Source: Candidatus Levyibacteriota bacterium (GTDB lineage: Bacteria; Patescibacteriota; Microgenomatia; Levybacterales; UBA12049). From it: DNA of 41,983 nucleotides. The translations under genes were made by a program, and so were the position numbers. Where the stretch lies: the NCBI GenBank assembly GCA_016204425.1, contig JACQKR010000046.1, positions 1 to 41,983 on the forward strand. Direction: 5' to 3'. Under the pieces are notes generated by a model. It did no database searches and was not told where the DNA came from. It was given only the letters and a program-made list of their open reading frames with translations. Of this stretch, positions 7,987 to 40,684 are shown piece by piece (the first letter of the stretch is position 1; the number at the start of each line of letters is the position of its first letter).

Positions 7987-9849
7987 ATGAGATCTTTCTT
8001 TCGTTGTATTCTTCTTTTGCTTGTTGGCATTTTCTTTGTAAATTCGCCACGGATCGCATTCGCGAGTGAATATTTCACGACGAAATACGATGTGACCTAT
8101 GCAATCTCTGGAAATGAGAAGACGACAGTCACCACAGAAATAGTGCTCACCAATACGACCGATGATTATTTTGCAGGTTCTTATTCGCTGCAGTTGGGCT
8201 TTGAAAATATCGAGAATATTTCGGCATTCGATACGCTTGGAGTGATAAAACCGCAGGTAATCAAAACAAAAGACGGTAACTCGATTGACATTCCTTTCAA
8301 CAGGCGGGTAATCGGAAAAGGAAACGCCGTAGATTTCACGCTGAAATTCGACACAACTGATGTAGCCAAGAAGCACGGTAGCGTCTGGGAGATCAACATT
8401 CCGAAAATCCCTAAGAACAACGATTTTTCAACCTTCACAGCAAGAGTAACGGTTCCAAAGTCTTTTGGAAAGCCTATCTACATGAAACCCCAGCATCCCG
8501 GATCGGAGCTGGTGTTCAATAAAGAACAGCTGGAGGAGTCCGGGATATCAATGGGATTTGGGGAGAGGCAGGTATATGACTTTACTCTCTACTATCATTT
8601 AAAAAACAAACACCTCTTCCCCATCAGGACAGAAATTGCCGTTCCACCGGCGACTAACTACCAGGATATCCAACTTGAAGCGATGACCCCAAAACCTTAC
8701 AAGATGAGAAAGGATGAAGACGGCAATTGGCTTGCCGAATACCGGCTTGATCCGACAGAAAATGTCACAGTCACTGTGCAAGGGAAAGCGATCATCTCTC
8801 TTTTTCCGAAAACTGAGGAAATAACAAAGCAACAAATTGATGAGTACACAAAAGAAAAGCCGTACTGGCAGGTATCCGACGCAAAAATACAGACTTTGGC
8901 AAAAACACTTAAAACACCTCATGCGATTTATGAGTATGTGGTAAAAAATCTTACCTATGACTTTAGCCGCGTTACCGAGCAGAAAGGCAGAGCCGGTGCG
9001 CTTTTAGCACTACAAGAGCCTACCTCTGCTGTCTGTCTGGAATTTACGGATTTATTTATCTCAATTGCACGTGCCGCCGGAATTCCATCCAGAGAGATTG
9101 AGGGATACGCGTATACGGATAATCCGAAGCAGCGGCCTCTTTCTCTTGTGAAAGACATTCTGCATGCGTGGCCGGAGTATTATGATTTTGAGAAAAAAAC
9201 ATGGATTATGATTGACCCGACATGGGGAAATTCAACTGGTGGAACTGATTATTTTACCCAGCTTGACTTTGACCATTTGACTTTCGTCCGAAAAGGGGTG
9301 AGTAGCGAAATGCCGATCCCCCCAAGCGGGTACAAATATGAGAATGATCCCGACAGCAAGGATGTCCATGTTTCCTTTGCATCATCGTACGCACAAGCGG
9401 CACCTGCAATTCAGGTGGAGTCGATTATCGACAATGCATACCTTTCAGGACTCCCGATAAAAGGGAAGATTATCCTCCGGAACGCCGGAAAGACGATTTC
9501 CCTCCCACAGCAGGTGCTTATCGAATCACAGGATTTGTTGCCAAAGCGTCAACTGATTACGTCTGAGAGTATTTTGCCCTTCAGCTTTGTTGAAATTCCC
9601 ATAGCCTTTCAAAAAAAGCCGCTTTTGACAAATACAAGCGCAACTTTTACAATGAGCTTTGACAAAACAGCCATTCATAAGACAATACGCATTACCCCTT
9701 TTCTCATAAATGAATGGACTATTGCAGGAGGAATTACATTTGGAATTGCTGCCATCATCGTATGCATCATTGCCGTCAGAGCCTGGCGTGTACTGCTTTC
9801 TCAACGAAAGCGGAGCAATCCTTTACGTGGGGAAGGCAAAGGATCTTAA
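7987..9849 (+). CDS. Secreted or membrane-anchored transglutaminase-like (cysteine protease fold) protein
   Basis: 620 aa with a signal peptide (ILLLLVGIFFVNSPRIAFA). Transglutaminase core with Cys (TSAVCLEFTDLFISIARAAGIPSR), His (HAWPEYY) and Asp (IDPTW). C-terminal TM anchor (ITFGIAAIIVCIIAV) followed by a basic tail. Confidence 0.8.
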   Translation: MRSFFRCILLLLVGIFFVNSPRIAFASEYFTTKYDVTYAISGNEKTTVTTEIVLTNTTDDYFAGSYSLQLGFENIENISAFDTLGVIKPQVIKTKDGNSIDIPFNRRVIGKGNAVDFTLKFDTTDVAKKHGSVWEINIPKIPKNNDFSTFTARVTVPKSFGKPIYMKPQHPGSELVFNKEQLEESGISMGFGERQVYDFTLYYHLKNKHLFPIRTEIAVPPATNYQDIQLEAMTPKPYKMRKDEDGNWLAEYRLDPTENVTVTVQGKAIISLFPKTEEITKQQIDEYTKEKPYWQVSDAKIQTLAKTLKTPHAIYEYVVKNLTYDFSRVTEQKGRAGALLALQEPTSAVCLEFTDLFISIARAAGIPSREIEGYAYTDNPKQRPLSLVKDILHAWPEYYDFEKKTWIMIDPTWGNSTGGTDYFTQLDFDHLTFVRKGVSSEMPIPPSGYKYENDPDSKDVHVSFASSYAQAAPAIQVESIIDNAYLSGLPIKGKIILRNAGKTISLPQQVLIESQDLLPKRQLITSESILPFSFVEIPIAFQKKPLLTNTSATFTMSFDKTAIHKTIRITPFLINEWTIAGGITFGIAAIIVCIIAVRAWRVLLSQRKRSNPLRGEGKGS

Positions 9850-11155
9850 GGCACGCGTTTCATCATATTTTCAACCGGGAGCTGTCCTCGGAACAAAAAC
9901 GAGCGTCCTCGTCCACCAAACAAAAAAAGTCAAAATTGTACGTGTTGAGACAGAGGTTGAATCCCTGCTTTTGGAAGCGTTCTATATAAAGAAATATTCC
10001 CCGAAGTACAACGTCCGTCTCACAGACAATAAGTCATACCCGCTCATCAGAATAACGGTGAAAGATGCATTCCCGAAAATACTTCTCGCACGACGCGTAG
10101 ACGACCCGACATCAGCCTATTTTGGTCCGTATCCAAACGCCGGAGCTGTAAAGCTGGTTTTACGCATTATGCGTAGGATTTTCCCGTTTCAATCTGTTTT
10201 CAATCATCCGAAACGAGTCTGTCTCTATAATCATCTTGGTCTTTGCCCGTGTCCTCCGGTGCACAATACCATTGCAGATAAAAAGGAATACAAAAAAAAT
10301 ATCCGGCGGATCATAAAGGTACTCGAAGGAAACGTACGGTTGATTCTCAATGAGCTTGAAAAAGAGCGTAATGCTGCGAGTGTATCTGAAGATTTTGAAA
10401 GCGCACAAAAAGTTCAAAAGCAAATGAACGCGATGAGTGTTATTACGCAGCGAGTCACCAGACCCGTTGAATATGAAGCAAATCCCAATTTACGCGAAGA
10501 CCAAAGACAAAAAGAATTGTATGCCTTACAAAATTTGTTACGACAGAAAGGAGTTCCAGTCCAGTTTCCTCAAAAAATAGAGTGTTATGATATCTCAAAC
10601 ATTCAGGGCAAGTATGCGACCGGTTCGCTCGTTGTTTTCATCCAGGGAGAGAAAGAATCTGCGTTTTACCGGAGATTTCGAATCAGAAGAGAAAATGCAC
10701 CAAATGACTTTGCCATGATGCACGAAGTGTTGACTAGGCGCCTGAAGCACGATGAATGGAAGTTCCCACAGCTCATCGTTGTCGATGGAGGAAAAGGGCA
10801 AATCACAAGTGCTCTGCAGGCGATTGGAGAAGCGGGAATTTCAATTCCCTTGATAGGATTAGCTAAACGCGAAGAAACGATTATAATTCCAAATCCGAAA
10901 TTCGAAACTAGAAATTCGAAACAATATCAAAATACTAATGACAGAAACACAAAACGTTTTAAGCATTCGAAAATTCAAAATTTAGATTTGTTTCGCGCTT
11001 CGAAACTCGATATTCGAAATTTTGTTGAGGTTTCTCTCCCAAAAAACTCTCCAGCGCTTCTCCTGTTGATGCGGATTCGGGACGAAGCGCATAGATTTGC
11101 AATTACGTATCACCGGAATATTCGCTCAAAGGGAAGTATTTTTGAAAATAAGTAG
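9740..11155 (+). CDS. uvrC: Excinuclease ABC subunit C (UvrC), with an internal low-complexity insertion and no C-terminal (HhH)2 domain
   Basis: GIY-YIG motif (PGVYCF..ILYVGKAKDLKARVSSYF..KYNV), UVR-like helix region, and endonuclease-V-like domain (IECYDISN..VVDGGKGQ..GLAKREE..IRDEAHRFAITYHR). The start is uncertain: ATG 9710, or TTG 9740/9746 behind CAGGAGGAA. Every option overlaps the upstream gene by more than 100 nt. Confidence 0.9.
   Translation: MELLPSSYASLPSEPGVYCFLNESGAILYVGKAKDLKARVSSYFQPGAVLGTKTSVLVHQTKKVKIVRVETEVESLLLEAFYIKKYSPKYNVRLTDNKSYPLIRITVKDAFPKILLARRVDDPTSAYFGPYPNAGAVKLVLRIMRRIFPFQSVFNHPKRVCLYNHLGLCPCPPVHNTIADKKEYKKNIRRIIKVLEGNVRLILNELEKERNAASVSEDFESAQKVQKQMNAMSVITQRVTRPVEYEANPNLREDQRQKELYALQNLLRQKGVPVQFPQKIECYDISNIQGKYATGSLVVFIQGEKESAFYRRFRIRRENAPNDFAMMHEVLTRRLKHDEWKFPQLIVVDGGKGQITSALQAIGEAGISIPLIGLAKREETIIIPNPKFETRNSKQYQNTNDRNTKRFKHSKIQNLDLFRASKLDIRNFVEVSLPKNSPALLLLMRIRDEAHRFAITYHRNIRSKGSIFENK
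10890..11018 (+). repeat. Imperfect palindromic, TTCGAA-rich element inserted in frame within uvrC
   Basis: Five (A/C)TTCGAAA units. Arms CGAAACAATATCAAAAT (10917-10933) and AATTTAGATTTGTTTCG (10979-10995) pair perfectly over their outer 8 bp and imperfectly beyond. Translated as PKFETRNSKQYQNTNDRNTKRFKHSKIQNLDLFRASKLDIRNF, between the conserved AKREE and SLPKNSPALLLL..RDEAHRFA blocks. Confidence 0.6.
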
Positions 11156-36349: not shown

Positions 36350-36422
36350 GCCCCTGTAGCTTAACGGATAGAGCGAGTGCGTTCTAAGCACCAGGTTGGG
36401 GGTTCGATTCCCTCCAGGGGTA
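36350..36422 (+). tRNA. tRNA-Arg (anticodon UCU)
   Basis: GCCCCTG TA GCTT AACGGATA GAGC G AGTGC GTTCTAA GCACC AGGTT GGGGG TTCGATT CCCTC CAGGGGT A. G1-U72 wobble and an A-C mismatch at the top of the anticodon stem. Confidence 0.85.
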
Positions 36423-36498
36423 CCGCGCACCATTCGGTACACGGCTTCGCCACTAAATAGGAAAGTCGTGATTTACAGTAATCTCTCGAAATATAGTT

Positions 36499-36825
36499 GT
36501 GCGCGTGGGATGCACCGACTGGTGCGTCCCATTCCTTACATCTAAGATTTTTTATTATGTCTACGTACTCCACAATTCCCCAAAAAATTTTCTATATGTT
36601 GGTTATTCTGGAGATTTGAAGCAAAGGCTTACTTCGCATAATAACGGTGAGAATAAATCAACAAAAGCATTTGTACCACTTGAACTAATTCACTATGAAG
36701 CATATAGAAATAAAAAAGACGCTAAACGGAGAGAAACTTATCTAAAAACTACAAAAGGAAGAACCACATTACGATCAATGCTTAAAGAATACTTATCAGA
36801 TACGAAAAACCCAAAAAACTTGTGA
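36499..36825 (+). CDS. Small stand-alone GIY-YIG nuclease domain protein (copy 1), immediately 3' of tRNA-Arg
   Basis: YYVYVLHNSPKNFLYVGYSGDLKQRLTSHNNGENKSTKAFVPLELIHYEAYRNKKDAKRRETYLKTTKGR is a complete GIY-YIG core. There is no ATG next to YYVYVL. The only in-frame start is the GTG at 36499, which lies inside a strong hairpin (GGGATGCACC-GACT-GGTGCGTCCC), so the start is uncertain. Confidence 0.8.
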   Translation: MRVGCTDWCVPFLTSKIFYYVYVLHNSPKNFLYVGYSGDLKQRLTSHNNGENKSTKAFVPLELIHYEAYRNKKDAKRRETYLKTTKGRTTLRSMLKEYLSDTKNPKNL

Positions 36826-36875
36826 CTCGAACCTCTCCGGGGCATGCTCTGAGAGATAGCATGGCTATCAAATGT
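36826..36875 (+). repeat. Degenerate tRNA 3'-end echo plus direct-repeat copy A
   Basis: It starts at the GIY-YIG stop codon: TGA-CTCGAACCTCTCCGGGGCA, compared with the tRNA-Arg end TTCGATTCCCTCCAGGGGTA. It continues TGCTCTGAGAGATAGCATGGCTATCAAATGT, and copy B at 37806-37859 shares the blocks CGGGG, GAGAGATAGC and GCTATCAAA. Confidence 0.5.
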
Positions 36876-37389
36876 TTGCTTCATCTAGAATATTTGGTGC
36901 TTGACTCTGACTACTAGACTGTAAGTCAATTGCATTATCTTTCGGCGGTTTGAGAAAGGCATACAAAGGATTATTCTGAACCATTTGCAAGATTTCACCA
37001 GTCGGAATATCAGAATTAAATGCTGCAAGATAAACTACCAGATCATCAAATAGCTTTTGTCTATCAGCAACAACACCCATTGTAATAACGAATAACATCT
37101 CCTTATCTTTTCTATTAAATTCAAATGTGTGGGTCCAAAATCCATCTTCTGGACGACCAACAAGAATCGAGATATTAGGAGATTTTTCTGGGTTCTCGTA
37201 TATATTTTTTCCAGATGAAAGCTCGCCGACTGCTTCATCAAAAGTATCTCTTGGCTTTGTAGGAATTACATCATCACCATCGGGTGATCTAAGTGCTTCT
37301 ACTGTAAATTGCATGCCTTTTGGTACGAGATTATCACCTTGAGTCATAAAGAACCCTTGAGATGCAGCAACAATACCCTCAAGATTCAT
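36868..37389 (-). CDS. Hypothetical acidic protein (second gene of a two-gene cassette)
   Basis: 173-aa ORF with protein-like composition. Its start overlaps the upstream stop (ATGA). No motif recognised. Confidence 0.6.
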   Translation of the reverse strand: MNLEGIVAASQGFFMTQGDNLVPKGMQFTVEALRSPDGDDVIPTKPRDTFDEAVGELSSGKNIYENPEKSPNISILVGRPEDGFWTHTFEFNRKDKEMLFVITMGVVADRQKLFDDLVVYLAAFNSDIPTGEILQMVQNNPLYAFLKPPKDNAIDLQSSSQSQAPNILDEANI

Positions 37390-37646
37390 CTCATCTCCTC
37401 CCTCAATACCTCATTCAATACGTCAATCGAATTGACAACACCTTCATCAATTGACATGGGAATTCTTGCAAATCTTACATTAAGTATTTTTCTAGAGTCT
37501 TTTCCGGTAGAAGTGGCTGTTGCTAATATTCCTTCTATAGAATCAGCTACATCACTCAGTGGCGTTTGTGACAATTCTTTTCCAATGGAGAGCATAAAAC
37601 CATTGCTTATGGGTTCAGGTACCGACATCTCATTTCCTATCGACAT
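37386..37646 (-). CDS. Hypothetical small acidic protein (first gene of a two-gene cassette)
   Basis: 86-aa ORF. The ATG at 37646 lies 6 nt downstream of a TTGAAA-17-TATAAA promoter, so the mRNA looks leaderless. Confidence 0.55.
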   Translation of the reverse strand: MSIGNEMSVPEPISNGFMLSIGKELSQTPLSDVADSIEGILATATSTGKDSRKILNVRFARIPMSIDEGVVNSIDVLNEVLREEMR

Positions 37647-37652
37647 AAAAAC

Positions 37653-37681
37653 TTTATATCACATTTAGACTATCATTTCAA
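37653..37681 (-). promoter_or_regulatory. Sigma70-like promoter TTGAAA-17-TATAAA for the two-gene cassette (leaderless)
   Basis: rc of 37676-37681 is TTGAAA and rc of 37653-37658 is TATAAA, with a 17-nt spacer. The ATG begins 7 nt after the -10. Confidence 0.5.
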
Positions 37682-37805
37682 CTAAAACGTTTAAGACATA
37701 ATATCCAATAAGCTCTTTTAAGAACTCGAACAATCTGGTAAAATAAGTCTAGTTAACAACACGAGTGTACGCACGCATAATTCTATCGATCCAAGCTAGA
37801 AAGTG

Positions 37806-37859
37806 TTCGAATAGAAGTGCATCGGGGGTACTTGGAGAGATAGCGTTGCTATCAAACGT
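37806..37859 (+). repeat. Degenerate tRNA 3'-end echo plus direct-repeat copy B
   Basis: TTCGAATAGAAGTGCATCGGGGGTA followed by CTTGGAGAGATAGCGTTGCTATCAAACGT. The hairpin core is GATAGC-NNN-GCTATC, as in copy A. Confidence 0.45.
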
Positions 37860-37910
37860 ACGAATAGCTCGATATATCGGCTAATCGTATGGTATATAGA
37901 TAATTACATC

Positions 37911-37938
37911 TTGCAATTTATTATCAAATCGTTATAAT
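37911..37938 (+). promoter_or_regulatory. Sigma70-like promoter TTGCAA-16-TATAAT for the toxin-antitoxin operon (leaderless)
   Basis: TTGCAA at 37911-37916, 16-nt spacer, TATAAT at 37933-37938. The ATG at 37947 is 8 nt downstream. Confidence 0.55.
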
Positions 37939-37946
37939 TATAACAT

Positions 37947-38237
37947 ATGCAGAAAACCATTCTTCAAGTTCCATTAAATCAGCAACTCAAAAGCGACGCA
38001 GAGAGAGTAGCCCTATCTCAAGGCTTTTCTTCTCTTCAAGAAGTAGTCAGGGTTTTTTTGACAAAACTCGCGACACAAAAAATTGAAGTGTCATTACAAG
38101 AATCTGTACCCCTCTCTGAAGAGAATGAAATGCGATACCTTCAACTAACGAGAGACTTTCAGAAAGGTAAGAATGTATATTCTGCAAAAAATGCTGACGA
38201 TTTAATAAAACAGCTCAATGAAAGTTCGGTATCATAA
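37947..38237 (+). CDS. Type II antitoxin (RelB/DinJ-like)
   Basis: 96 aa. N-terminal ribbon-helix-helix-like text (ILQVPLNQQLKSDAERVALSQGFSSLQEVVRVFL). It overlaps the toxin gene by 20 nt. Confidence 0.7.
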   Translation: MQKTILQVPLNQQLKSDAERVALSQGFSSLQEVVRVFLTKLATQKIEVSLQESVPLSEENEMRYLQLTRDFQKGKNVYSAKNADDLIKQLNESSVS

Positions 38238-38481
38238 AACGTTTCTTAAGAACTACAAGAAGCGAATTGCCACGAATAAAAGGCTAGAAAGAAAATTTCT
38301 TCAACAACTTGAGCACTTTCTCAAAAATCCAACCAATCCTTCTCTTCGGGATCACAAACTTGTTGGTAAAAAGAGTAGTTACAGAGCGTTCTCTGTCACT
38401 GGAGATATTCGAGTGATTTACAGAACTGTCGAGGGTGAATTGTGGCTTTATGATATTGGCAGCCATAATCAAGTGTATTAA
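38218..38481 (+). CDS. Type II toxin, RelE/YafQ-family mRNA interferase
   Basis: 87 aa with KTFLKNYKK..LRDHKLVGKKSSYRAFSVTGDIRVIY..LYDIGSHNQVY, a typical RelE/StbE/YafQ C-terminal signature. Confidence 0.8.
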   Translation: MKVRYHKTFLKNYKKRIATNKRLERKFLQQLEHFLKNPTNPSLRDHKLVGKKSSYRAFSVTGDIRVIYRTVEGELWLYDIGSHNQVY

Positions 38482-38817
38482 ATCCTACGTACGTTTGGCA
38501 TGATCAATACATGGGATTCGCAGAAGCAGGAGCTGGCAATTGGTCCTTTGTTGGTAATGTCTTTACAAAAATATTTTCTCTTCAATGATCGTTTGCTCTC
38601 TTTAGTTTAGAATGTATTGGATTTTTAATCGGTTTCTTGTTTTCTACAAAGAAAAAATAAGGATTAAACTTTTCTTAATTTATTCTTCCTGGTCAGGTTG
38701 ATATACCATCATCAGCCTGATAAAATGGGCATGAAGCGGTTCAAAATAAGAATCGCCAAATGTAAACATCTCAGCCTCATTGACAAAGCTTCATCGACTT
38801 CGTATAGTAGAGGAGGT

Positions 38818-39819
38818 ATGCTGCACCGATTCTTCTCATATCTTCTCAAAAATCAGGTTGTACTCGTTTTTTTCTTAGTGATCGCGGCGTGGTTTATTTT
38901 TCAAATTCGGGGCATTCTCACCTCAATTTTCATTTCATATATCATCATGGCGGCACTCAATCCGTTTGCGACACAACTTCGAAATAGACGTGTTCCTATG
39001 GTATTGTCTGTTGCTATTCCTTATTTATCAACGATTCTTATTGTCTTTCTCCTCGTTTTTCCGCTTATTCCGTTTATTTTCTCGCAGGTACAATCACTGT
39101 TAACAAGTCTTCCGGTTTTTCTCAATGAGTCGGGAAAAGCATTCGGTTTTAGTATCGATGCCAAACAAATACAGAGCATTGTCGCAAATGAATTGAATAA
39201 CATCGGACGAAATGCGTTTGCTGTTACCAGTGCAGTATTTGGCGGAGTTTTCTCAGTCCTCACGATCCTTATCGTCAGCTTCTATCTCATGCTCTATCAC
39301 GACAAGTTCAAACACCGCGTTGCAGAATTATTTCACAAAGACCTTCATCAAAAGATCTATTCTACATTGACCAGGATAGATTTTAAGCTCGGTGCGTGGT
39401 TACGAGGGCAACTTGTACTAATGGTTTTCATCGGCGTTCTCACCTGGCTTACCCTTACCGCACTTGGCGTCCCCTACGCATTGCCACTTGCGATACTGGC
39501 TGGAATTTTGGAAGTTATACCGACACTTGGACCGACGATTTCGGCAATTCCGGCAGTCATCGTCGCAATAACGATTTCACCATCTCTGGGATTAATTGTC
39601 GCTTTGTCATATTTTGTGATTCAAATGATAGAAAATAATTTCCTCGTGCCAAAGATTATGGAGAAAGCAGTAGGACTTAATCCTGTTTTCGTCATCTTAG
39701 GTGTCATGATAGGAGCAAGTCTTATGGGCATCACAGGTGCATTGTTATCGATTCCATTCTTATCATTTCTGATCGTTCTCTTCAAAAGCATCGCAGACGT
39801 AGAGTCGGAAAAAGTCTAA
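38818..39819 (+). CDS. AI-2E family transporter (PerM/UPF0118)
   Basis: The ATG at 38818 behind AGGAGG is preferred. 7-8 TM helices and LGAWLRGQLVLMVFIGVLTWL..LAILAGILEVIPTLGPTISAIPAVIVA, the family signature. Confidence 0.85.
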   Translation: MLHRFFSYLLKNQVVLVFFLVIAAWFIFQIRGILTSIFISYIIMAALNPFATQLRNRRVPMVLSVAIPYLSTILIVFLLVFPLIPFIFSQVQSLLTSLPVFLNESGKAFGFSIDAKQIQSIVANELNNIGRNAFAVTSAVFGGVFSVLTILIVSFYLMLYHDKFKHRVAELFHKDLHQKIYSTLTRIDFKLGAWLRGQLVLMVFIGVLTWLTLTALGVPYALPLAILAGILEVIPTLGPTISAIPAVIVAITISPSLGLIVALSYFVIQMIENNFLVPKIMEKAVGLNPVFVILGVMIGASLMGITGALLSIPFLSFLIVLFKSIADVESEKV

Positions 39820-40422: not shown

Positions 40423-40684
40423 TCAATATGACCTTAATGTGTTTTTAAATGCAATCTTTATCTGATTCCGCCCAAATCCACTCTTTAGAAATACCTCTCT
40501 CGTTTTTGCATCCTTTTCGTCAACAAAATATTCGTAATGGATTAGTTTCAGTGGTCGACGATGCTTTGTTGAGCTCACATCTCCTCGAGCGTGTTCAGAT
40601 AGTCTTTTTTTTTAGATCTGTTGTAAATCCAGTGTAAAATTTTCCGTCTAATAAACTTATAAGTATATAAACGTAATACTTCAT
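40423..40684 (-). pseudogene. Small GIY-YIG nuclease gene (copy 2), 3' of tRNA-Gly, frameshifted in an A9 run
   Basis: From ATG (rc of 40682-40684): MKYYVYILISLLDGKFYTGFTTDLKKK. After a 1-nt shift in the A9 run (T9 on the plus strand, 40605-40613): RLSEHARGDVSSTKHRRPLKLIHYEYFVDEKDAKTREVFLKSGFGRNQIKIAFKNTLRSY*. The 262-nt span equals 87 codons plus 1 nt. It is not in the ORF track as a single ORF. Confidence 0.7.

What the first reader, a model, noticed from the sequence alone, without database searches (positions are those of the whole stretch)
36838..37859. Repeat-flanked, leaderless two-gene cassette of unknown function in an islet next to tRNA-Arg
Two co-oriented ORFs (86 aa then 173 aa, ATGA overlap, both acidic, no recognisable motifs) are driven by a TTGAAA-17-TATAAA promoter that starts transcription at the ATG. 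The unit is bracketed by a direct repeat of about 37 nt. The shared blocks are CGGGG, GAGAGATAGC-NNN-GCTATCAAA-N-GT (36838-36875 and 37823-37859). Each copy is preceded by a degenerate tRNA T-loop/acceptor-like string (CTCGAACCTCTCCGGGGCA and TTCGAATAGAAGTGCATCGGGGGTA).

The layout is tRNA-Arg, GIY-YIG, echo, cassette, echo, RelE/antitoxin pair. That is the pattern expected from serial integrations at a tRNA gene. By eye (not computed), the segment 36430-38700 is more AT-rich than its flanks. Small two-gene cargo in such islets is often a toxin-immunity or anti-phage module, which makes this the best protein-coding candidate for something undescribed in the window.
Basis: partly seen in the sequence, partly recalled or inferred. 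Interest (0 to 1): 0.62.

Follow-up and report, generated by a model that had tools for sequence, protein, structure and literature searches.

The report
Orphan gene pair between repeated genes
A real but functionally unknown two-gene operon in a groundwater Parcubacteria genome sits between two decayed copies of a small multi-copy gene, in the position where related genomes carry toxin-antitoxin pairs; the "flanking repeat" is those two gene copies, not a tRNA integration scar.

Summary
On the minus strand there are two ORFs: orfA (37646..37386, 86 aa) and orfB (37389..36868, 173 aa). They share an ATGA overlap, both are acidic, and both lie in an AT-rich islet. A genuine 36-nt imperfect direct repeat brackets them.

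The interpretation needs correcting.
- The tRNA-like "echoes" are no better than chance.
- The repeat is coding sequence of a small multi-copy gene, here called X. One copy is a 39-codon relic (37865..37749). The other is a 12-codon stump (36875..36840).
- In related genera, X copies recur every 0.9-1.5 kb with a variable module between them, mostly type II toxin-antitoxin pairs. One relative has X, then Phd-like, then ParE, then X, at the same spacing as here.
- So orfA-orfB is the cargo of one slot in an X-punctuated array.

orfB has only two detectable relatives among 1.84 billion cluster representatives. Both are single proteins of 258-260 aa, and orfA plus orfB makes 259 aa. The pair is therefore probably a split version of that protein, but orfA itself shows no similarity to it.

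Pfam, NCBIfam, PHROGs, PADLOC, PDB sequences and Foldseek gave no hit for either protein, and both AlphaFold models were poor. Function remains unknown. Interest is moderate to low, mainly for the X-array context.

The parts
36350..36424 (+). tRNA-Arg (anticodon TCT); marks the left edge of the AT-rich islet.
   Evidence: ARAGORN; Rfam tRNA, 60 bits.
36499..36825 (+). Small GIY-YIG nuclease gene of homing-endonuclease type. One of about 9 copies in the genome. Its 3' end overlaps, in antisense, the decayed remainder of X''.
   Evidence: Pfam PF01541, E 5.4e-16. Genome-wide copies. Three copies lie within 200 nt of a tRNA gene.
36840..36875 (-). Left repeat copy, called X'' here. It is a 12-codon stump of gene X (..QTFDSHAISQSMP). 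It overlaps the last codons and the stop of orfB.
   Evidence: the repeat finder D1. Protein alignment with X homologues. It is 28/36 identical to X' and less similar to X copies of other genera.
36868..37389 (-). orfB, 173 aa, pI 4.4. It is homologous to residues ~130-255 of two orphan 258-260-aa proteins. It has a GGAGG Shine-Dalgarno motif 9 nt upstream and an ATGA overlap with orfA.
   Evidence: phmmer against 1.84 billion representatives: E 1.5e-6 and 9.3e-6. hhalign 98.2%, E 3.7e-14. Codon score 0.21, in the upper range of real genes. Sequence of the junction.
37386..37646 (-). orfA, 86 aa (80 aa if started at the ATG at 37628), pI 4.5. No homologue was found anywhere.
   Evidence: Only self-hits among 5.8 billion clusters. 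Codon score 0.10, above the 95th percentile of shadow ORFs (0.057). No similarity to the N-termini of P0003 or P0004.
37653..37681 (-). Sigma-70-like promoter: TTGAAA, 17 nt, (TGa)TATAAA. The -10 element ends 6 nt before the orfA ATG, which is leaderless geometry.
   Evidence: Sequence. The same -35/17/-10/6/ATG geometry precedes P0003 and, more weakly, P0004. Not experimentally shown.
37749..37865 (-). X', a 39-codon relic of small gene X (PIYRAIRTFDSNAISPSTPDALLFEHFLAWIDRIMRAYTRVVN*). It has no canonical start codon and an in-frame TAG lies just upstream. About 22 residues are missing compared with full-length X.
   Evidence: blastn hits in 12 other genomes of the order. Homologous ORFs in the relatives L039-L043. 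Alignment A3. tblastn E 8e-7.
37824..37859 (-). Right repeat copy. It lies inside X' and encodes TFDSNAISPSTP.
37947..38481 (+). RelB/DinJ-like antitoxin (37947-38237) and RelE/YafQ toxin (38218-38481). The pair is divergent from X'.
   Evidence: Pfam YafQ_toxin, E 1.5e-11. NCBIfam RelE_StbE, E 1.9e-10; RelB_DinJ, E 0.013, below the family cut-off.

Best explanation
orfA-orfB is the cargo of one slot in an array punctuated by copies of a small gene, X.

**What X is.** X encodes about 50-80 aa. Its consensus is ..IYQQIRxFDD..SAPDxLSFEHFLPWIxKIMxAYQ...YYTKKVN. It is patchy and multi-copy in this Parcubacteria family.

**How the array looks in other genera.** Successive X copies lie 0.9-1.5 kb apart. 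One variable module sits between them: BrnT/BrnA, Phd-ParE, AbrB-like plus PIN, an XRE regulator, or a secreted protein.

**How it looks in the window.** Reading the minus strand, the order is X' (relic), promoter, orfA, orfB, X'' (a stump truncated by the GIY-YIG gene). It is not an att site, a terminator or a tRNA echo.

**Expression (inferred from sequence only).** The operon has its own sigma-70-type promoter, positioned for a leaderless or very short-leader mRNA. orfB is translationally coupled to orfA through a GGAGG motif and the ATGA overlap.

**What the proteins are (inferred).** orfB is the C-terminal two-thirds of a very rare, acidic, cytoplasmic protein. That protein exists elsewhere as a single chain of 258-260 aa. 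orfA (86 aa) most likely supplies the fast-evolving N-terminal part as a separate polypeptide. If so, the pair is a gene fission whose two products reassemble.

**What is shown and what is not.** Shown: the repeat is X; X arrays with toxin-antitoxin cargo exist in relatives; orfB belongs to the 260-aa family; both ORFs look coding. Inferred: recombination between X copies exchanges or captures modules; orfA corresponds to the N-terminal domain; any function. The biochemical function is unknown. Given the company it keeps, I guess an accessory, conflict-type role (addiction, defence or counter-defence).
For: **The repeat is X.**
- The right copy lies in a 39-codon frame homologous to small ORFs in other genera.
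- The left copy encodes QTFDSHAISQSMP, against RTFDSNAISPSTP in the right copy.

**X arrays in relatives.**
- X occurs in 25 of 194 genomes of the family, with up to 4 copies per genome.
- L056: XRE | X | BrnT-like/BrnA (only the antitoxin has a Pfam hit) | X | BrnT'-like/BrnA'-like (by sequence, no Pfam run) | X | 424-aa protein | X.
- L058: BrnT/BrnA | X | AbrB-like plus PIN | X.
- L057: X, then Phd-like (91 aa), then ParE (83 aa), then X, all on one strand and about 1,000 nt apart. The window spacing is 984 nt.

**orfB homology.**
- phmmer E 1.5e-6 and 9.3e-6 against 1.84 billion representatives.
- hhalign 98.2%, E 3.7e-14. orfB residues 26-151 match profile positions 132-255.
- 86 + 173 = 259 aa, against 258 and 260 aa for the homologues.

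**Shared promoter geometry.**
- The -35/17/-10/6/ATG layout precedes orfA and P0003 (10 of 12 consensus positions each) and, more weakly, P0004.
- Fixed-register identity over the 36 nt upstream is 22/36, 18/36 and 21/36.

**Coding signal.** orfB scores 0.21 and orfA 0.10. The 95th percentile of shadow ORFs is 0.057.

**Population data.** The locus is identical in Logan contigs of at least 5 groundwater runs from two studies.

**Foreign composition.** GC 36.7%, in the lowest 0.4% of genome windows.
Against: - orfA shows no detectable similarity to the N-termini of P0003 or P0004. BLAST found nothing, Smith-Waterman shuffle tests gave p 0.09-0.32, and hhalign found nothing. The fission rests on length, position and promoter geometry only.
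- Most of the promoter matches fall in consensus elements, and about 5% of long ORFs in this genome share that geometry. The resemblance could be convergent.
- X'' is only 12 codons long. It could be a local partial duplication rather than the remnant of a full X copy.
- The two homologues are not next to X. One is instead bracketed by a duplicated rpoD 3' end. The X-array model does not explain that.
- There is no expression data.
- Both AlphaFold models are poor (pLDDT 48 and 45), and Foldseek returned nothing usable.
Confidence: 0.5

Rival explanations
1. It is a new type II toxin-antitoxin or toxin-immunity pair. orfA (small, acidic, upstream) would neutralise orfB. orfB would be a truncated, free-standing version of the C-terminal domain found in P0003 and P0004.
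For: - The architecture fits: a small upstream gene, a 4-nt overlap and its own promoter.
- The equivalent slot between X copies in relatives holds Phd-ParE, BrnT/BrnA or PIN modules.
- A RelBE pair lies next door.
- orfA has no similarity to the N-terminus of the fused homologues.
Against: - No toxin or antitoxin domain was found in Pfam, NCBIfam or PADLOC.
- orfB is acidic (pI 4.4), unlike most type II toxins (own knowledge).
- The homologues carry the domain inside a single 258-260-aa chain with no partner gene.
- The length sum of 259 aa fits a fission.
Confidence: 0.22
2. It is a frameshifted pseudogene. A once-intact ~260-aa gene was broken by a single indel at the ATGA junction and is decaying. 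The two ORFs would have no function.
For: - 86 + 173 = 259 aa, against 258 and 260 aa.
- The neighbours are relics: X' has no start codon, X'' is a stump, and another GIY-YIG copy in the window is frameshifted.
- The islet looks like a graveyard of selfish elements.
Against: - Both frames stay open over their full length and show coding-type codon usage.
- orfB has a strong GGAGG motif at the right distance and its own ATG.
- The sequence is identical in at least 5 runs from two studies, with no variant.
- A single indel would have to have created a perfect coupling site by chance.
Confidence: 0.15
3. The cassette is an integrated element at tRNA-Arg, and the repeats are attL/attR sites derived from serial site-specific integrations.
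For: - It lies next to a tRNA gene and has low GC.
- A repeat brackets the unit.
- A distant homologue (P0004) is bracketed by a duplicated 3' end of rpoD. That does look like an integration scar.
Against: - The repeats are not tRNA-derived. They are X coding sequence.
- X' continues to its own stop codon after the repeat. That is not the topology of a target-site or att duplication.
- No recombinase lies on the 42-kb contig. The genome has one tyrosine and two serine recombinases, all on other contigs.
- No empty-site or excision joint appears in 4 metagenome runs. These are contig data, which miss rare variants.
Confidence: 0.06
4. The repeat is a functional DNA or RNA site, such as an operator for a dimeric regulator or a small terminator hairpin. 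It would have been kept because of the GATAGC-N3-GCTATC palindrome.
For: Both copies keep the 6-bp palindrome, and 2 of the 8 differences between the copies fall in its 3-nt loop.
Against: - Folding energy does not differ from shuffled sequence (z -0.5 to -1.1), and there is no T-run.
- Only two copies exist in the genome.
- The genome's ordinary dispersed hairpin repeat is a different family, TGTCATSCTGAA..TTCAGSATC, with at least 24 copies.
- Protein-level conservation of X explains the sequence.
Confidence: 0.05

Closest known systems
Toxin-antitoxin cassette arrays in chromosomal (super)integrons (from own knowledge, not tested here)
   Same: Both are strings of small, variable, often toxin-antitoxin-type modules. 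In both, the modules are separated by a recurring sequence element and sit in an AT-rich variable region.
   Different: - Here the recurring element is a protein-coding gene (X, with protein-level conservation), not an attC hairpin site.
- No integron integrase is present and there is no GTTRRRY core.
- The modules carry their own promoters and can lie on either strand.
tRNA-associated genomic islands or islets with att direct repeats
   Same: It lies next to a tRNA gene, has low GC, carries accessory and selfish cargo, and is bracketed by a direct repeat.
   Different: The repeat is not derived from the tRNA 3' end. There is no integrase. The unit is only ~1 kb.
Type II toxin-antitoxin operons (Phd-ParE, RelBE, BrnTA)
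   Same: Two small genes with a stop/start overlap and their own promoter. The upstream product is acidic. The pair occupies the slot that toxin-antitoxin pairs occupy in relatives.
   Different: No recognisable toxin or antitoxin fold or domain was found. The downstream product is acidic. Its homologues are single-chain proteins without a partner.
Split genes (gene fission) with translational coupling
   Same: The sum of the two ORF lengths equals the length of the single-chain homologues. There is an ATGA overlap and an internal Shine-Dalgarno motif. orfB aligns only to the C-terminal ~125 residues of the homologues.
   Different: Homology of the upstream half (orfA) to the N-terminal part could not be shown.
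Orphan proteins P0003 (260 aa, JGI metagenome 3300037810) and P0004 (258 aa, Logan SRR22388305)
   Same: They share the C-terminal domain, including the motifs DGDD, DRQKLFDD and YxAxFNxDxP. All are acidic. They share the leaderless-type promoter geometry.
   Different: They are single chains. P0003 lies directly upstream of a thiamine pyrophosphokinase gene. P0004 lies after an rpoD 3' end that is duplicated on its far side. There is no X gene nearby.

Membership tests
Type II toxin-antitoxin system | Two small adjacent co-transcribed genes, often overlapping | tested here: met
   ATGA overlap, a single promoter-like site upstream, and a GGAGG motif before orfB.
Type II toxin-antitoxin system | A recognisable toxin domain (RelE/ParE, PIN, MazF, Fic, HipA, BrnT and so on) | tested here: not met
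   No Pfam, NCBIfam or PADLOC hit for orfB. No PDB sequence hit for the family profile.
Type II toxin-antitoxin system | An antitoxin with a DNA-binding domain (RHH, HTH, AbrB, Phd) | tested here: not met
   orfA has no family hit. PDB phmmer gave only chance-level hits, E >= 0.47.
Type II toxin-antitoxin system | Growth arrest by the toxin and rescue by the antitoxin | not testable with these tools
   Needs expression in a laboratory host.
tRNA-targeted integrative island | Flanking direct repeats that copy the 3' end of the tRNA gene | tested here: not met
   Alignment scores to the tRNA-Arg 3' half are matched by 2.9% and 8.5% of random windows. There is no blastn-short hit.
tRNA-targeted integrative island | An integrase or recombinase gene within the island | tested here: not met
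   PF00589 and PF00239 hit only contigs C27, C56 and C7, not the window contig C30.
Integron gene cassette | An attC site (imperfect inverted repeats with a GTTRRRY core) at the cassette 3' end, and an IntI integrase | tested here: not met
   The repeat holds only a 6-bp palindrome and has no GTTRRRY core (by eye). It is coding sequence of X. No integrase lies on the contig. No attC covariance model was run.
Known anti-phage defence systems (PADLOC-DB 2.0) | A match of either protein to a defence-system model | tested here: not met
   The only hit is a chance-level one to Dsr2 (E 0.031, 10 bits) for orfA. orfB has none.
P0003/P0004 orphan protein family | A significant alignment to the conserved C-terminal domain | tested here: met
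   orfB: phmmer E 1.5e-6 and 9.3e-6; hhalign 98.2%, E 3.7e-14.
P0003/P0004 orphan protein family | An N-terminal ~100 residues homologous to the family (needed to call orfA the split-off half) | tested here: inconclusive
   No similarity was found. However, the two full-length members are themselves unalignable over their first ~45-57 residues. The lengths and the promoter register agree.
Small gene family X | Protein-level similarity to the FEHFLPWIDKIM.AYQ core | tested here: met
   X' (37865..37749): tblastn E 8e-7, 53% identity over 32 aa; alignment A3. X'' matches only over 12-13 residues.

The most novel reading that the evidence does not exclude
The X-punctuated arrays are a previously undescribed cassette-exchange system of Parcubacteria. 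Copies of a small protein gene (or a DNA site inside it, such as the 42 nt at 37798-37839 that are identical between organisms) would act as portable recombination anchors. These anchors would capture and shuffle ~1-kb modules, including toxin-antitoxin pairs and orphan genes like orfA-orfB. That would be an integron-like gene-capture device without an integron integrase or attC sites. The duplicated rpoD end around the homologue P0004 would be another footprint of duplicative capture by the same cargo family.
Probability: 0.1. Interest if true: 0.75.

Novelty: new member of a known kind. Interest (0 to 1): 0.38.

Why it matters
Candidate Phyla Radiation (CPR) genomes are tiny. Accessory DNA that persists in them is therefore informative.
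- This locus shows that one of the few variable islets in such a genome is organised around repeated copies of a small gene, with exchangeable ~1-kb modules between them.
- It also shows that an extremely rare protein family (three members found among about 15 billion proteins searched) travels as such a module.
- If the X arrays turn out to be a real capture or exchange device, they would explain how streamlined Patescibacteria acquire and turn over toxin-antitoxin and orphan genes. A published survey of 125 aquifer Patescibacteria genomes attributes up to 13% of genome length to horizontal transfer (PMC12455944).
- For the cassette itself, the practical value is a corrected annotation: a probable split gene and a gene-derived repeat, not an att site.

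Tried and rejected
**Homologue searches**
- The word-indexed search of 5.8 billion clusters found only self-hits for both proteins.
- A profile search with A1 returned only the two proteins already in the profile.
- The search for related loci found nothing in genome, viral or metagenome contigs.
- Six-frame searches of 60 relatives found nothing real. The weak G023 hit lies antisense inside an MFS transporter gene.

**Family, structure and RNA searches**
- Pfam, PHROGs, PADLOC and NCBIfam gave no hit for the two proteins or their two homologues.
- PDB sequence searches gave nothing usable.
- AlphaFold2 on orfB alone and on P0004 with a 3-sequence alignment gave pLDDT 48 and 45.
- Foldseek against the PDB gave no hit with E <= 0.001, so those matches were disregarded.
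- Rfam found only the tRNA.

**The repeat**
- The core pattern in 185,000 species genomes hit only single chance copies, in Campylobacter and others.
- The conserved block 37798-37839 was not found by exact search in the genome or metagenome collections.
- Folding of the repeat region was not better than shuffles.

**Mobility and expression**
- Reads or contigs supporting an empty site or excision: none. The one joint seen (36419 to 38938) has a 24-nt side and involves the tRNA, so it was dismissed.
- No RNA runs hold the stretch.

**Other**
- An rpoD-end remnant upstream of P0003 gave shuffle p 0.0055. Equal scores occur elsewhere in that contig, so it is treated as weak.
- orfA versus the N-termini of the homologues was not significant.
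Full report
**1. What is at the coordinates**

The window is contig C30 of a 778-kb, 64-contig, 73%-complete genome. Its RpoD is 91% identical to that of a MAG labelled Candidatus Parcubacteria. The same sequence is held by groundwater metagenome runs.

The two ORFs of the finding lie on the minus strand.
- orfA is 37646..37386 (86 aa).
- orfB is 37389..36868 (173 aa).
- The orfA stop overlaps the orfB start as ATGA.
- Both products are acidic (pI 4.5 and 4.4) and mildly hydrophilic (GRAVY -0.03 and -0.31), with no hydrophobic segment evident by eye.

Upstream of orfA lies TTGAAA (37681-37676), then 17 nt, then TGaTATAAA (-10 hexamer at 37658-37653). Six nucleotides separate the -10 element from the ATG. 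That geometry fits a leaderless mRNA. However, a second ATG at 37628 is preceded by AGGAAA, and a gene caller used it (80 aa). No RNA run holds the stretch, so the start is unproven.

orfB has GGAGG 9 nt before its ATG. Its frame is closed 7 codons upstream of that ATG. This is classic translational coupling.

A codon-usage log-odds score was trained on 302 long ORFs of the genome. It gives orfB 0.21 and orfA 0.10. ORFs of 150-300 aa have a median of 0.15. Shadow ORFs have a 95th percentile of 0.057. The neighbouring GIY-YIG, antitoxin and toxin genes score 0.07-0.13. Both ORFs therefore look coding.

**2. The repeat and the composition**

The repeat finder reports 36840-36875 against 37824-37859, 36 nt and 78% identical.
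- The core GAGAGATAGC-N3-GCTATCAAA occurs only at these two places in the window and in the genome, even allowing 3 (window) or 2 (genome) mismatches.
- A genome-wide scan for direct repeats of this strength, 200-2,500 nt apart, finds 47. Most are coding repeats. About 0.3 are expected in block-shuffled genomes. The repeat is therefore real.

The segment 36430-38700 has 36.7% GC against 43.0 +/- 2.0% for same-size genome windows. That places it in the lowest 0.4%. The AT-richness seen by eye is confirmed.

The 'tRNA T-loop/acceptor-like strings' are not confirmed.
- Local alignment to the tRNA-Arg 3' half gives scores that 2.9% and 8.5% of random 32-nt windows of the contig reach.
- blastn-short with the tRNA 3' region finds other tRNAs but not these strings.

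**3. What the repeat really is**

Contigs from four metagenome runs were laid on the region. The stretch 37732-37839 is shared with other, more abundant organisms of the same samples. Within it, 42 nt (37798-37839) are identical.

A blastn of 37725-37865 against 245 genomes of the order hit 12 genomes other than the window's own, in several genera. In those loci the match lies in a small ORF, for example MKEGEALNYIISLLYQSRSFGNIIASSGAPDAHSFEHFLPWVDKIMLAYQGENDT...YYTKKVN in L040.

The window's minus strand reads, stop to stop, PIYRAIRTFDSNAISPSTPDALLFEHFLAWIDRIMRAYTRVVN* (37865..37749). I call this X'.
- It is 53% identical to the L040 protein over 32 residues (tblastn E 8e-7).
- It lacks a start codon.
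- It lacks about 22 residues before the C-terminal KKVN motif.

The right repeat copy encodes TFDSNAISPSTP within X'. The left copy encodes (K)QTFDSHAISQSMP. This is X'', a 12-codon stump. It overlaps the orfB stop and then runs antisense into the 3' end of the GIY-YIG gene. X'' is closer to X' (28/36) than to X copies of other genera.

**4. X arrays**

X is patchy (25 of 194 genomes of the family, 18 of 89 genera) and multi-copy (up to 4 per genome). Many copies are truncated or carry stops. Protein-level conservation, such as YYTKKVN and FEHFLPWI, across divergent DNA shows that X is a real protein family. It has no Pfam match.

Copies are strung out at 0.9-1.5-kb intervals with one variable module between them.
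- G137 (L056): XRE | X | BrnT-like/BrnA (only the antitoxin has a Pfam hit) | X | BrnT'-like/BrnA'-like (by sequence, no Pfam run) | X | 424-aa protein | X.
- G024 (L058): BrnT/BrnA | X | AbrB-like plus PIN | X.
- G151 (L057): X, then a Phd-like gene (91 aa), then ParE (83 aa), then X. All are on one strand, about 1,000 nt apart.

The G151 arrangement is the exact structural analogue of the window: X', then orfA, then orfB, then X'', with 984 nt of spacing. The 'repeat-flanked cassette' is therefore one slot of an X-punctuated array. Its downstream X copy has been eroded next to a GIY-YIG gene. That GIY-YIG gene is one of about 9 copies in the genome, three of them within 200 nt of a tRNA gene.

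No recombinase lies on the contig. The genome has one tyrosine and two large serine recombinases on other contigs.

**5. What the cargo is**

Word-based searches of 5.8 billion clusters found only the proteins themselves. An exhaustive phmmer search of 1.84 billion representatives found two relatives of orfB.
- P0003: 260 aa, E 1.5e-6.
- P0004: 258 aa, E 9.3e-6.

The two are 27% identical to each other. hhalign of orfB against their alignment gives 98.2%, E 3.7e-14, with orfB residues 26-151 matching profile positions 132-255. Conserved motifs include DGDD, DRQKLFDD and YxAxFNxDxP.

orfB thus corresponds to the C-terminal two-thirds of a single-chain protein. Also, 86 + 173 = 259 aa. orfA, however, shows no similarity to the N-termini. 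Those N-termini are themselves barely alignable between P0003 and P0004.

All three loci share the same promoter layout in front of the first ATG: -35, 17 nt, -10, 6 nt, ATG.
- Window: TTGAAA and TATAAA.
- P0003: TTGTCA and TATAAG.
- P0004: TTGCTA and TAAATA, which is weaker.
- Fixed-register identities over the 36 upstream nt are 22/36, 18/36 and 21/36. Shuffle p is below 5e-5 (0 of 20,000 shuffles) for the window/P0003 and P0003/P0004 pairs and 0.002 for window/P0004.

Many of these matches lie in consensus elements, and about 5% of long ORFs in this genome have this geometry. I count it as supportive, not decisive. I therefore favour a gene fission (about 55%) over an unrelated partner gene.

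No function could be assigned. Pfam, NCBIfam, PHROGs, PADLOC and PDB sequences gave no hit for orfA, orfB or their two homologues. The AlphaFold2 models are poor and the Foldseek hits are noise.

**6. Context of the homologues**

P0003 lies immediately upstream of a thiamine pyrophosphokinase (TPK) gene.

P0004 lies on a 911-nt contig between two copies of the 3' end of an rpoD gene (..RHPSRGNKLKDYLG*).
- The two copies are 35 nt and 91% identical to each other.
- The downstream copy matches a genuine rpoD end at 42 of 47 positions.

In a Parcubacteria MAG, and in the window's own genome, rpoD is followed directly by TPK. That is an empty site. So this cargo family has been inserted at least once with duplication of a host gene end. 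The X-array model does not explain that, and I leave it as an open observation. No X copy is present at those loci.

**7. Population data**

Logan contigs from at least 5 runs in two studies carry the cassette with zero differences, at 3-13x depth. Depths left and right of the shared 42-nt node co-vary across samples, which argues against a chimeric join. No excision or empty-site joint was seen. Contig-level data would miss rare variants.

**8. Verdict**

The tRNA-integration reading is wrong. The repeat is two neighbouring copies of a small gene family that punctuates arrays of ~1-kb modules in this bacterial family. The cassette is the cargo of one slot.

It is a genuine, extremely rare orphan operon. 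It is most likely a split version of a 260-aa acidic protein. Alternatively it is a new toxin-antitoxin-like pair (about 0.2) or a dead frameshifted gene (about 0.15). Genomic islands are already known to be common in groundwater Patescibacteria (PMC12455944). The new element here is the X-punctuated organisation, which deserves a dedicated survey.

Noticed in passing
Relatives: L056 (G137:C14:25500-32500), L057 (G151:C48), L058 (G024:C102), L059 (G138:C91): Small gene X (about 50-80 aa, no Pfam family) recurs every 0.9-1.5 kb. One variable module sits between copies: BrnT/BrnA, Phd-ParE, PIN, XRE, Fic or a secreted protein. This is an array organisation I do not know from the literature.
   Followed up: partly
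window 37798-37839: A 42-nt stretch inside X' is identical in contigs of other organisms from the same groundwater samples. Those organisms are 3-7 times more abundant, and their flanking sequence is only ~76-85% identical or unrelated. This may be recent gene conversion or exchange, or a conserved DNA site.
   Followed up: partly
L012 1-60 and 856-911 (Logan SRR22388305 contig): The distant homologue P0004 is bracketed by a duplicated 3' end of an rpoD gene. Related genomes, and the window's own genome (C64, about 20148/20099), have rpoD directly followed by thiamine pyrophosphokinase, which is an empty site.
   Followed up: partly
window 7873 (+) and 7955 (-); at least 24 copies genome-wide: A dispersed REP-like palindromic repeat, TGTCAT[CG]CTGAA-N-TTCAG[CG]ATC, lies in intergenic regions next to ordinary genes (aspartate-semialdehyde dehydrogenase, DapA and DnaX-like genes, named by eye). 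It is unrelated to the cassette repeat.
   Followed up: partly
window 36499-36825, 40423-40684 and 9782-10012; other contigs: There are about 9 small GIY-YIG nuclease genes in a 778-kb genome. Three lie within 200 nt of a tRNA gene. The copy at 40468-40681 is interrupted: the frame holds two TGA codons.
   Followed up: partly
window 37947-38481: A RelB/DinJ-like antitoxin and a RelE/YafQ toxin overlap by 20 nt. The pair is divergent from X'. A TTGCAA-16-TATAAT promoter-like site ends 8 nt before the antitoxin ATG.
   Followed up: partly
L011 1-338 (JGI 3300037810 contig): An unannotated 109-aa ORF with no Pfam hit precedes P0003. A weak rpoD-end-like string (AATAAGTTAGAGATTATCTTGGATAG) begins at its stop codon and runs just downstream. 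Its significance is marginal.
   Followed up: partly
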